This document shows positions 9,001-12,000 of a stretch of DNA of 64,000 bases, in pieces. Within the stretch, counting starts at the first letter, position 1, and every line of letters starts with the position of its first letter. The position numbers are program-made. Source of the DNA: Perna viridis (Eukaryota); assembly GCA_037379345.1 (NCBI GenBank), contig CM074512.1, positions 48,691,597 through 48,755,596 of the forward strand, given 5' to 3'.

Positions 9001-12000
9001 GGTTTGACATCAATCAACTGTTCAACCAGTTTTTCTTTGTTCTAGGTCAACCAGTGGTCGCATTTCATCAGCTAGTCGTAGTACCAGTGTTACTCCTAAA
9101 ATTCCTGCCAAAATGACATTGAACAATTCTACCGATACCCACAACAGCACAGCCTCTAGTGGGTCACATATCCTCAGTACAGGGGCAGAAACCCCTCATG
9201 ACAGAACAGAAGTGGTTGATGTACATAGCGCTGCCAGTTCTCTGTCTGGAAGCCGCTCGCTGGGATCACCAAAACCAGAACACAGCTCGACACCAGATGG
9301 AACGATTGACACAAAGGCCTATCTCGTTGGCGGAGGTGAGGAAGCATTGCCATCTATAGAACGAGGTTCTAACTTAGTTGTTACTAACGAAATTGTTGTA
9401 CATAATCAAAATATGTCATCCAAACAAAGTCCAGTTGCCTCTGATCTCATACTAACTGGTGACGGGTCTCAATTGTATTCCTTTAGCCAGGTAGATAATG
9501 CTATAGATAAGCTTAGTTCTGAATTGTATAATGTAGAAAATGTTCCAGATACGTACCGTGAGAAACTTTACTCTTCGCTCGGTAGAGATTCTAAAAAATT
9601 ATCTGAAAAAGAAAAATCACAGCAGCAAAGCAAAGGAACTTTACCAGAAAGTCAACCAAAAAGAGATTTGAGTGCTATAAAAAGGGAAAAATTGATGGAA
9701 CAAGAGCATGATCTGCAAGCTGAAACTCAGAGAGAAATTGAGAACTTGATTGCTTCTGTTCAGGAAGAAAAGCGACGTCTTGCAGAAGGCGAAACTTTTA
9801 TGATTGAATTGAAAGATGATATTCCTGCAGGTTCTCACATTTCTGTTAGTGTAGGAGTATCTTCTCGTCAAAATTCTCCAGATAAACAAGTTCTTGCATC
9901 TCCTATGTCACAGGAATCTGTTGATTTATCTGATAGACATAGTACTGATCTTGATCTTTCAGCACAGACGAGTATTGATTGTGACAGTTACAGTTTTTCT
10001 TCATTAGCAAACAGTGAAGACCTTATGGATGCTATTCCGTATATTCTTCATCGAAGACATTTTTCTGAAGATGCTGAAGAAGAAATTGAGAATAATGATA
10101 TCATTAGTCCTGTAGAGCCAAGTGCTGAACTGAGTTCTATTCGTAGGAGTAGAAGTTTGAAAAAGAAACGTCCCACCAACATACAAGTAGAACAGGTAAA
10201 AGTCTATGCAAGTTCTGAAGATGGATCTCCATCGCCCCAACTACATCAAAGATCTTTTTCCTGTGGGACAAAGAGATCACCACACAGTAGATCTCCATCT
10301 GAAAAAGGTCTGCGTATTTTGAAAAGTAGATCTCCATCAGGAAAAAGGACACCAGGATCCATTTCCCAAACATCTCTTGACCGCTCTCCATCAGGTGCAA
10401 AAAGGCGTAACTATTTTACACTACCACCAAGAGATGCTTATTCTAGCATTGATGATACTACAAGCCCTGTTTTTGATACAGATATTGTTAAGCATATTAA
10501 AAGTCAACAGTCAATTGATCGTGAGGATAGTAACACAAGCATCCAAATGTTAGGTCAAGCAAATCTGACTGATCAATCTCCAGTAGTTGAAACAAATGCT
10601 ATGTATTCTCCTGAATATGTTCAAGTTGAAACTTTTAGAACTGACAATGTATTAAATGATGATAAACAATCAGATGGACCTGTATTTGGGAAAGTAGATG
10701 AAAAATCAATTGACCTGTCAGCAAGAACTGTTGAATATATGGAATCTCAACAAATTTCTCAATGTCATGATGTAAGGGAAGTTATCAAGGAAGAAAACTC
10801 CTCTCCAGAAAAATCTCCTGACAGTGAAAGTATAAAAAGTGTACAAGAAAAAGTTAATGTCAAAAAGAAGGACATGATACAAAAAAGTTGGAAATACACA
10901 AAGCAGGAAACTGTAGATCTGATGGGAAGTCATCACAGTGACACTGGAAGTCTGGACAATCCATCTCCAGCAGCCGTGTTCCTGTTATCTGAAGGTGAGT
11001 ATCATAGTAAAGTCAAAAGAAGTAGCAGTGGCATTTCATTCAGCACATTCAAACCAGCTAATGTTTCTACTCCAAGCACTCCAGGGTCACGCCCCCAGAG
11101 TTTTACAGAATCAGAAAAGGGAGAAGACACTGTCTCTCTTTTGTCTTCTGCAACTGATACATTGAGTAGGACTTGTAAAATTCCAGAGGAAAATATTTTC
11201 CGCCCAACAAGTCCTAAACCTAAATCAAATCATCGTAGGAGCTCAAAAGATATGCCAAATATTCGATCACGTAGAAAAGTAAGCTTTCCTCGTGAAAGGG
11301 GATACAAATATAGCTTTGAAAGTGTAAATGACCCTCCATATTTGTCACTTCCTCGTTCAGAGGATATCAGCTTAGAGGAATTCAATAAAACATCTGATTC
11401 TTTAACTGGATATTTATCTCATGATAATTGTGAAATGATTGAATCGGATACTACTGAATCTTCCAATGGTGAAACAGACCAAGATATTGAGAGCAGTGAT
11501 GATGATCGCCATGCGGAGTTCTTAAAATTTGCAAAAAGTTTAGCTGATTCAGGAAAGGAAATCACCGCTGATTCTGGAGTTGGTGCTGAAATGGAGAACT
11601 CAGTTGTCAGGGAAACGTCTCCCTTAGAAGTGCTTGATAATCTTGAAAATTCTCTTCAGGATTCTTTTGAATATAGTCTAACTAGAAATGGCTGTCAGAT
11701 CAAAATTGATGTGGATGGTAGTTCTTCCGATAGTGAACCCGAGATTGTTGTTACAAAAAAACGTTGTAGTGCTGATCCTCTGGAGGAGTTAGAAAATTTA
11801 GACATTGCTGAAGTTGCTTCCAGTACAAGCAGCAGCTCTTCAGAAGGACGGAAAAGAAAGAAGAAAGGGAGGAGAAAATCTAGTCGAAATCAACTGGTTA
11901 TACCACTGTTAACTATTAGTAATCCATCTAGTCCTGAAGAAAATAATGTAGATAGCAAATACAACGAAATAAGCTCTAATTCTGTTTGTTAAGATATTTT

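What the first reader, a model, noticed from the sequence alone, without database searches (positions are those of the whole stretch)
9330..11000. Two in-phase internal 5' splice sites make exon 4 a three-way length switch
Seen: GGAG|gtgagg (9335/9336) and a perfect-consensus GAAG|gtgagt (10994/10995) are both phase 1, matching the next FARP acceptor (27366). Using the first gives a conventionally sized FARP. Using the second inserts 553 more aa (coiled coil plus RSPS repeats) between FERM-FA and DH. Using neither gives the truncated isoform. Inference: linker length could tune localisation or autoinhibition of the DH-PH-PH module.
Basis: partly seen in the sequence, partly recalled or inferred. 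Interest (0 to 1): 0.65.

Follow-up and report, generated by a model that had tools for sequence, protein, structure and literature searches.

The report
FARP gene's dual-purpose exon with two donors
An invertebrate-type FARP gene has a 2.9-kb exon that can either end the protein as a FERM-plus-long-tail form or be spliced from inside to the RhoGEF exons, a layout already described for the worm gene frm-3; whether two inner splice sites are both used remains unproven.

Summary
GAG|GTGAGG (exon end 9335) and AAG|GTGAGT (exon end 10994) both lie in phase 1 of a 994-codon open frame (9008-11989, stop 11990-11992). Both fit the phase-1 acceptor at 27366, and they are exactly 553 codons apart. The gene is a FARP: FERM_C, FA, DH, PH1 and PH2 exons were confirmed exon by exon. 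The frame has no stop for 885 codons past the first GT, against 15-75 stops per segment in the other frames, and codon usage is coding-like throughout. So a read-through FERM-FA-tail protein is almost certainly made. Frame rules also require some phase-1 donor inside this exon to reach DH-PH-PH. This two-product layout matches C. elegans frm-3, whose frm-3b is spliced from inside the last frm-3a exon. Evidence that both GTs are used is moderate. They are the two best U1-complementary sites of 164 GTs, which happened in 0.6% of 3000 synonymous shuffles. An own-gene PWM and a consensus count gave no significance, apart from the 9/9 match (4.7%). Being in phase adds little. No RNA or orthologue data could be reached. 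Verdict: a new member of a known kind. I put the two-way switch at about 0.8 and the three-way switch at about 0.4.

The parts
5971..6045 (+). FA-domain exon (E3 of the window). Its donor AAG|GTATGC leaves 2 codon bases (phase 2).
   Evidence: Pfam FA E=1.8e-7; splice sites and phase.
9046..9335 (+). Exon 4 part A (290 nt), from the acceptor (AG 9044-9045, phase 2) to the first inner donor. Ser/Thr-rich (36.5%). No Pfam family above threshold.
   Evidence: Codon log-likelihood +0.247 bits/codon in frame with a model trained without exon 4.
9336..9341 (+). Inner 5' splice site 1, GAG|GTGAGG, phase 1. U1 pairing -10.2 kcal/mol, second best of 164 GTs in the exon.
9336..10994 (+). Part B, 553 codons, open and coding-like. 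Included only if site 1 is not used.
   Evidence: 0 in-frame stops against 30 and 75 in the other two frames. +0.221 bits/codon. No Pfam or PDB match.
9659..9814 (+).
   Evidence: Sequence heuristic only.
10274..10393 (+). Cluster of RSPH plus 3 RSPS (exon residues 410-449). No repeat is detectable at the DNA level.
   Evidence: Tandem Repeats Finder found nothing in 9000-12100.
10995..11000 (+). Inner 5' splice site 2, AAG|GTGAGT, phase 1. 9/9 consensus. U1 pairing -12.6 kcal/mol, the best of 164 GTs.
10995..11992 (+). Part C, 332 codons plus the stop TAA at 11990-11992. Read only if neither inner site is used. Holds the basic cluster RKRKKKGRRK at 11849-11878.
   Evidence: 0 in-frame stops against 15 and 52 in the other frames. 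+0.257 bits/codon..
11718..11723 (+). Third phase-1 GT (ATG|GTAGTT), a weak rival donor.
   Evidence: PWM 7.47; U1 pairing -4.8.
12201..12256 (+). Two ATTAAA hexamers (12201, 12251), candidate poly(A) signals for the tail isoform. The first AATAAA is at 13528.
   Evidence: Density is not above the intron background of 2.42 per kb. GC falls from 0.36-0.40 to 0.26-0.32 after 12000.
27366..27606 (+). Next exon (E5), phase-1 acceptor with 15/20 pyrimidines. Linker exon without family match. Weak donor TAG|GTAGAG (phase 2).
28408..28651 (+). Linker exon E6 (proline run). Phase 2 in, phase 0 out.
29363..43316 (+). DH-PH-PH module in 15 exons (E7 to E19, including 35395-35453 and 38898-38983). Stop at 43314-43316.
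   Evidence: Pfam RhoGEF and PH. PDB best hits are FARP2 and FARP1. Phase chain.

Best explanation
Exon 4 (9046-11992) is a composite internal/terminal exon of a FARP gene, built like the last exon of C. elegans frm-3a. If it is read through and the transcript is cleaved downstream of 11992, the product is FERM-FA plus a 982-residue, domain-free, Ser/Glu/Lys-rich tail (an FRM-3A/FRMD7-like protein without GEF). If U1 engages an inner phase-1 5' splice site, the exon is joined to 27366 and on to the DH-PH-PH exons, giving a FARP. The two flagged GTs are the only strong U1 sites in the exon. Site 9335 makes a 290-nt exon and about 258 residues between the FA exon and the first DH exon, near the roughly 200-residue vertebrate linker. 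I take it as the default FARP donor. Site 10994, a perfect consensus about 1 kb upstream of the stop, is probably also competent and would add 553 residues. Shown here: the sites, the phases, the coding nature of all three parts, and the FARP identity. Inferred: which junctions are used, the polyadenylation, and any functional effect of linker length.
For: Exon-by-exon family matches: FERM_C 1.6e-17 and 1.1e-7, FA 1.8e-7, RhoGEF 1.4e-7, PH 7e-5. PDB best hits are FARP2/FARP1 for the FERM_C, DH, PH1 and PH2 exons. The phase chain is E3 (phase 2) > 9046 and 9335 or 10994 (phase 1) > 27366 (phase 1). There are 0 in-frame stops in 981 codons, against 47 and 135 in the other frames; intron stop frequency is about 7% per codon. 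Codon signal is positive for parts A, B and C with a model trained without exon 4. GC drops after 12000. The two GTs are the two best of 164 by U1 pairing, which occurred in 0.6% of 3000 synonymous shuffles. Only 8 such sites lie on the + strand of the 64-kb window, and 3 of them are model donors. Of 5 Gly-Glu dipeptides, only these two use GGT-GAG, although GAG is 17 of 85 Glu codons. [quoted passage not shown]
Against: No transcript, junction or orthologue evidence could be obtained. With the own-gene PWM and with consensus counts, the pair of sites is not beyond chance (13.9-73.8% of shuffles). I tried the U1 measure second, so its 0.6% needs discounting. Poly(A) hexamers after the stop are not enriched: 2 ATTAAA in 1.5 kb against a background of 2.42 per kb. 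E5 and E6 have no family match, and the E5 donor is the weakest in the model. Short hidden exons in 12-27 kb cannot be excluded, because real short exons score as low as about 4 bits. A 1949-nt internal exon, which site 2 would make, would be unusually long.
Confidence: 0.7

Rival explanations
1. Full three-way switch. Both 9335>27366 and 10994>27366 are used, beside read-through, giving a short-linker FARP, a long-linker FARP and a tail protein.
For: Both sites stand out together by U1 pairing, and both are phase 1. The distal site matches the consensus at 9/9 (4.7% of shuffles in phase 1). From general knowledge of U1 action (abstract of PMC5499120 seen in the listing), a strong 5' splice site inside a would-be terminal exon tends either to be spliced or to suppress the nearby poly(A) site.
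Against: There are no junction data. The PWM and consensus tests are not significant. A strong inner site need not be used, and a 1949-nt internal exon is unusual.
Confidence: 0.4
2. Two-way switch only. One of the two GTs (more likely 9335) is the FARP donor. The other is a chance or silent site inside coding sequence.
For: A 290-nt exon and a linker of about 258 residues are conventional; the vertebrate linker is about 200 residues (PMC6041286, passages). frm-3 is described with two FERM isoforms. One strong site arises by chance fairly often: a site at or below -12.6 in 3.8% of shuffles, and a phase-1 site with PWM at least 9.6 in 19.2%.
Against: Two sites at or below -10.2 kcal/mol occur in only 1.5% of shuffles. 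Both use the rare GGT-GAG codon pair.
Confidence: 0.4
3. The inner donors serve in-frame 'exitron' splicing to acceptor-like AGs inside the same exon, trimming the tail protein rather than joining to DH-PH-PH.
For: Phase-1 acceptor-like AGs with 16/20 pyrimidines lie at 10395 and 11361.
Against: Ser/Pro/Leu codons produce such tracts by chance. The gene still needs a phase-1 donor in this exon to make a FARP.
Confidence: 0.07
4. Neither GT is used. FERM-FA and DH-PH-PH are joined through undetected exons, or are separate transcripts. The sites are coincidence.
For: Small exons cannot be excluded. A strong U1-like site lies in the intron at 18055. C. elegans frm-3 has a third isoform without FERM (PMC9632837, passages).
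Against: No coding-like segment above 13 bits lies in 11993-27365, against 47-49 bits for E5 and E6. The best AG..GT candidate scores 3.0 bits. FARP architecture is conserved from worm to vertebrates.
Confidence: 0.05

Closest known systems
C. elegans frm-3 (FRM-3A / FRM-3B)
   Same: It has shared FERM-FA exons. One isoform ends in a large exon coding a tail without recognizable domains. The FARP-type isoform (GEF plus two PH) arises by alternative splicing inside that last exon (PMC7260190, passages).
   Different: Only one inner splice event is described there, while two strong in-phase donors 1659 nt apart are seen here. I could not compare the tails, because no worm sequence was available to the tools. 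Supplementary Fig. 1a of that paper, which shows the gene structure, could not be seen.
Vertebrate FARP1 / FARP2
   Same: The domain order FERM-FA-linker-DH-PH-PH is the same. The exons match FARP2/FARP1 chains best. The basic FKRKKF patch in FERM F3 (alignment) corresponds to the KRKR motif of PMC6041286.
   Different: The vertebrate linker is about 200 residues and non-conserved. Here it would be about 258 or about 811 residues. From recall only, vertebrate FARP genes also have short FERM-only database isoforms; I did not check this.
FRMD7
   Same: [quoted passage not shown] That region is coded from c.1051 on by the last exon, exon 12 (PMC3163398, passages and mutation table). FRM-3 is also treated as the worm homologue of FRMD7 (PMC7405782, passages). 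The read-through product here has the same layout.
   Different: FRMD7 is a separate gene without downstream GEF exons. Homology of the tails was not tested.
Composite terminal exons / intronic polyadenylation (splicing versus cleavage competition; IgM secreted/membrane switch from recall)
   Same: An inner 5' splice site competes with a downstream poly(A) site in the same exon (titles and abstracts of PMC4227790 and PMC5499120 in the listing).
   Different: No poly(A) site has been shown here, and there are two candidate inner donors instead of one.

Membership tests
FARP (FERM, RhoGEF and pleckstrin domain protein) | FERM domain of the FARP/FRMD7 subtype | tested here: met
   The FERM_C exons hit Pfam at 1.6e-17 and 1.1e-7. 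PDB best hits are FARP2/FARP1 FERM at 2e-22 to 6e-19, against 7e-9 for 4.1 proteins. Lobes F1 and F2 lie upstream of the window and were not seen.
FARP (FERM, RhoGEF and pleckstrin domain protein) | FERM-adjacent (FA) region directly after FERM | tested here: met
   Pfam FA 1.8e-7, 31.5 bits against a cut-off of 30.6, for exon 5971-6045.
FARP (FERM, RhoGEF and pleckstrin domain protein) | DH (RhoGEF) domain downstream on the same strand | tested here: met
   Three exons match RhoGEF (0.016, 0.037, 1.4e-7). The exon at 32274-32460 matches FARP2 at 1.7e-14.
FARP (FERM, RhoGEF and pleckstrin domain protein) | Two PH domains after DH | tested here: met
   The first PH1 exon matches FARP2 residues 227-249 at 9.5e-6. 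PH2 exons hit Pfam PH at 7e-5 and 0.03 and FARP2 at 1.9e-22. One PH1 exon (39463-39599) gave no PDB hit.
FARP (FERM, RhoGEF and pleckstrin domain protein) | FERM-FA and DH-PH-PH are parts of one polypeptide | tested here: inconclusive
   The exons form an unbroken phase-compatible chain only through a phase-1 donor in exon 4. There is no transcript evidence.
frm-3-type composite exon (tail isoform / GEF isoform) | The open frame continues past the inner donor to its own stop and codes a tail without known domains | tested here: met
   885 codons past 9335 contain no stop. Codon signal is coding-like. No Pfam or PDB match.
frm-3-type composite exon (tail isoform / GEF isoform) | Inner 5' splice site in the phase of the next GEF-side acceptor | tested here: met
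   9335 and 10994 are both phase 1, and so is the acceptor at 27366.
frm-3-type composite exon (tail isoform / GEF isoform) | Both mRNA forms are actually made (junction reads and a poly(A) site after the tail stop) | not testable with these tools
   No RNA data. Only ATTAAA at 12201 and 12251 and AATAAA at 13528, which is not above background.
FRMD7 | Sequence homology of the C-terminal tail | not tested
   No reference sequence was available to the tools.

The most novel reading that the evidence does not exclude
One ancestral-type locus makes three proteins from one exon: an FRMD7/FRM-3A-like scaffold without GEF, a short-linker FARP, and a long-linker FARP carrying a helix and an RSPS phospho-cluster. 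The choice is set by a hierarchy of U1 sites. The proximal site is moderate. The distal site is perfect, lies about 1 kb before the stop, and both splices and holds back the tail poly(A) site. On this reading, vertebrate FRMD7 would be the read-through isoform turned into its own gene after duplication.
Probability: 0.2. Interest if true: 0.55.

Novelty: new member of a known kind. Interest (0 to 1): 0.3.

Why it matters
If the junctions are confirmed, the locus would show that the frm-3 arrangement is not a nematode oddity but a wider invertebrate feature of FARP genes. In that arrangement one gene gives a GEF-less FERM scaffold and a full FARP through an inner splice site of a terminal exon. 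It would also offer a simple origin for vertebrate FRMD7. A second inner donor would add a natural experiment on whether the non-conserved FERM-DH linker matters. On present evidence this is an ordinary, plausible gene-structure feature, not a surprise.

Tried and rejected
(1) An own-gene donor PWM and consensus counts with synonymous shuffles gave no significance for the pair of sites. I keep this as evidence against.

(2) Hidden exons in 11993-27365 were sought in two ways. The coding scan had a best segment of 13.0 bits. The AG..GT open-segment scan found 12 candidates, the best at 3.0 bits. Nothing was convincing, but short exons are not excluded. The model was trained on the known exons with the introns as background, so the control favours the known exons.

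(3) A repeat or transposon origin of exon 4 was checked. blastn and tblastn against the window found only the self match, and no tandem repeat was found.

(4) Pfam and PDB searches for parts A, B and C gave only sub-threshold noise, namely Imm1 at 0.06-0.11 and Herpes_UL32 at 0.91.

(5) An Rfam scan of the whole window gave 0 matches.

The coiled coil therefore rests on a sequence heuristic only.

(8) The poly(A) signal count showed no enrichment.

(9) The Drosophila Cdep preprint and a Rac-GEF review said nothing useful on isoform structure.

(10) The donor at 11717 was considered as the sole donor and rejected. The frame stays open and coding-like for 91 more codons, and its U1 pairing is weak.

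Full report
What the window is. The 64-kb window has no N and about 31% G+C. Its FARP exons are only partly identical to the vertebrate FARP chains in the PDB (alignments). I therefore do not take it for human and read it as an AT-rich invertebrate-type genome; I did not try to name the species. Every search on the gene model was done exon by exon. I never joined exons into a spliced protein for a search or a fold, so no whole-protein result is reported.

The gene. A chain of open segments with AG/GT borders and matching phases lies on the + strand:
- 116-271 and 3298-3458: FERM_C, Pfam 1.6e-17 and 1.1e-7.
- 5971-6045: FA, 1.8e-7.
- The large exon starting at 9046.
- 27366-27606 and 28408-28651: two linker exons with no family match.
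- Fifteen exons from 29363 to the stop at 43314-43316, carrying RhoGEF (0.016, 0.037, 1.4e-7) and PH (7e-5, 0.03).

Against solved structures, the best hits of the FERM_C, DH, first-PH1 and PH2 exons are FARP2 and FARP1. The E-values are 2.2e-22, 1.7e-14, 9.5e-6 and 1.9e-22. One PH1 exon (39463-39599) gave no hit. The two short exons 35395-35453 and 38898-38983 and the last exon 43232-43316 were found by phase and splice-site logic alone.

The observation.
- The sequence shows GGAG|GTGAGG with the exon ending at 9335, and GAAG|GTGAGT with the exon ending at 10994.
- Both lie in the open frame 9008-11989, with the stop TAA at 11990-11992.
- Both would-be introns start at codon position 2, which is phase 1.
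- The FA exon ends in phase 2 and the exon at 9046 starts in phase 2.
- The acceptor ttatctttttcag|AT at 27366 is phase 1.

Skipping the large exon would therefore break the frame. Any joining of FERM-FA to DH-PH-PH needs a phase-1 donor inside it.

Between the FA exon and the first DH exon there would be about 258 residues with site 1 and about 811 with site 2. The vertebrate linker is given as about 200 residues and non-conserved (PMC6041286, passages).

Is all of the exon coding? Yes, as far as one sequence can show.
- Parts A (9047-9334), B (9335-10993) and C (10994-11989) have 0 in-frame stops.
- The other two frames have 2 and 8, 30 and 75, and 15 and 52 stops in A, B and C. Stop triplets make up about 7% of intron triplets.
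- With a codon model trained only on the other exons, A, B and C score +0.247, +0.221 and +0.257 bits per codon in frame. They score lower, and mostly negative, out of frame.
- G+C is 0.32-0.48 across the exon and falls to 0.26-0.32 after 12000.
- The exon is unique in the window and holds no tandem repeat.
- Its 981-residue product has no Pfam or PDB relative.
- It is rich in Ser/Thr, Asp/Glu and Lys/Arg. It has a helix-prone charged stretch at residues 205-256, an RSPH plus 3 RSPS cluster at 410-449, and a basic run RKRKKKGRRK near the end.

So a transcript that reads through both GTs and is translated to 11990 almost certainly exists. Its product is FERM-FA plus a long alternative tail, rather than a mere truncation.

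Are the two GTs more than chance? Three measures disagree, and I report all of them.
- Own-gene PWM, built from 17 of this gene's own donors, which mostly read GTAAGT. Site 10994 scores 9.67 and ranks first of 164 GTs. Site 9335 scores 6.61 and ranks fifth, below the phase-1 GT at 11717. In 3000 shuffles that keep the protein and the codon counts, a phase-1 site of at least 9.6 occurs in 19.2%, and three or more phase-1 sites of at least 6.6 in 13.9%.
- Consensus count. Two or more phase-1 sites matching the consensus at 7/9 or better occur in 73.8% of shuffles. A phase-1 9/9 match occurs in 4.7%, and a 9/9 match in any phase in 7%.
- In-register pairing energy to the U1 5' end, a recalled textbook motif. 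The two sites are the two best of 164, at -12.6 and -10.2 kcal/mol; the next is -7.2. Among the 19 model donors they would rank second and fourth. Two such sites occur in 1.5% of shuffles, and two in phase 1 in 0.6%.

On the + strand of the whole window only 8 sites are this strong: these two, three model donors, and three others at 18055, 31244 and 53336. The - strand also has 8.

Of the five Gly-Glu dipeptides in the exon, only these two use GGT-GAG. GAG is 17 of 85 Glu codons and GGT is 13 of 42 Gly codons.

I chose the U1 measure after the PWM, so its p-value should be discounted. The phase agreement adds little, because strong donors in coding sequence fall mostly on G|GT Gly codons. My reading is that the evidence that both sites are real U1 targets is moderate, not decisive.

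Other exons in the long intron. A codon-based scan finds no + strand segment above 13.0 bits in 11993-27365, against 47.3 and 49.4 bits for the two linker exons. A search for open AG..GT segments with decent splice signals finds 12 candidates, the best at 3.0 bits. The same filter recovers known exons at 3.9-47.5 bits. The model was trained on those exons, so the control flatters them. Short exons cannot be ruled out.

What is known. For C. elegans frm-3, PMC7260190 (passages) makes three statements:
- Two isoforms share FERM and FA.
[quoted passage not shown] That is the same design as here, and FERM-FA alone rescued the synaptic defect there. PMC9632837 (passages) counts three frm-3 isoforms, two of them with FERM.

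FRMD7, whose closest homologues are FARP1 and FARP2, is FERM-FA plus a C-terminal region without homology. That region is coded from c.1051 on by its last exon (PMC3163398, passages and table). FRM-3 is also used as the worm homologue of FRMD7 (PMC7405782, passages). A search for papers holding both 'FRM-3' and 'FRMD7' found only that one.

The general mechanism, an inner 5' splice site competing with a poly(A) site in a composite terminal exon with U1 suppressing nearby poly(A) sites, is established. I saw only the titles and abstracts of PMC4227790 and PMC5499120 in the listing.

Most likely mechanism. The exon is a composite internal/terminal exon. Read-through plus cleavage somewhere after 11992 gives the GEF-less tail protein. 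The candidate signals are ATTAAA at 12201 and 12251 and AATAAA at 13528, which is not above background. U1 engagement at an inner phase-1 site gives a FARP.

Site 9335 makes a conventional 290-nt exon and a conventional linker, so I take it as the default. Site 10994 is a perfect donor that the splicing machinery is unlikely to ignore whenever 9335 is skipped. It could yield a long-linker FARP and, by binding U1 about 1 kb before the stop, damp the tail poly(A) site.

My probabilities are about 0.8 for a two-product composite exon and about 0.4 for use of both inner donors. The effect of linker length on localisation or autoinhibition is untested.

What stayed unchecked.
- Junction reads and poly(A) sites.
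- Conservation of the GTs and of the tail frame in related species.
- Homology of the tail to FRM-3A or FRMD7.
- The fold of the tail.

The genome collection on hand holds only bacteria and archaea, so I did not use it. Supplementary Fig. 1a of PMC7260190, which shows the frm-3 gene structure, could not be seen.

Verdict. The feature is real and correctly described. Its core, one exon that serves both as the end of a FERM-tail protein and as a spliced link to the GEF module, is a new member of a kind already described in C. elegans. The third state is plausible and cheap to test, but not shown.

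Noticed in passing
window 40358-40639: A 60-bp tandem repeat (4.7 copies, 90% match) starts inside the FARP exon that ends at 40385. It copies the exon's end together with its donor AGG|GTATGT. The frame stays open to 40745, and donor-like GTs recur in phase 0 at 40385, 40445, 40565 and 40625. Each further copy used would add 20 residues between PH1 and PH2.
   Followed up: partly
window 30140-30328: A 38/76-bp tandem repeat runs right up to the acceptor of the DH exon that starts at 30323, so the acceptor region itself is repeated.
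   Followed up: no
window 60712-62004 (+): A 431-codon open frame with a strong coding signal (165 bits) and the motif RFKVVKIETREPFKRGRWRCHD. No Pfam hit. From recall it resembles the N-terminal conserved box of TSC22-domain family proteins, and it is probably the first large exon of the next gene.
   Followed up: partly
window 11717/11718: A third phase-1 GT in exon 4 (ATG|GTAGTT), good by the own-gene PWM (7.47) and weak by U1 pairing (-4.8). It would give a FARP with a linker of about 1050 residues.
   Followed up: yes
window 18055, 31244, 53336 (+): Three further sites with U1 pairing as strong as real donors lie outside the exon model. 18055 lies in the long intron after exon 4, but no coding-like segment ends there.
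   Followed up: partly
window 27606/27607: The donor of the first linker exon (TAG|GTAGAG) is the weakest by the PWM and second-weakest by U1 pairing. A phase-0 GT at 27538 could join directly to the phase-0 DH exon at 29363 and skip 28408-28651, so the linker may vary here too.
   Followed up: no
window 3892-4087, 14522-14617, 15864-15970, 24958-25087, 38215-38292, 57776-57829: Intronic minisatellites with periods of 17-48 bp, and a (TG)27 microsatellite.
   Followed up: no
window 116-271: The FERM F3 exon carries FKRKKF at the position of the KRKR lipid-binding patch described for FARP1/2 and FRMD7, and of the KRKK motif of FRM-3 (alignment; PMC6041286; PMC7260190).
   Followed up: partly
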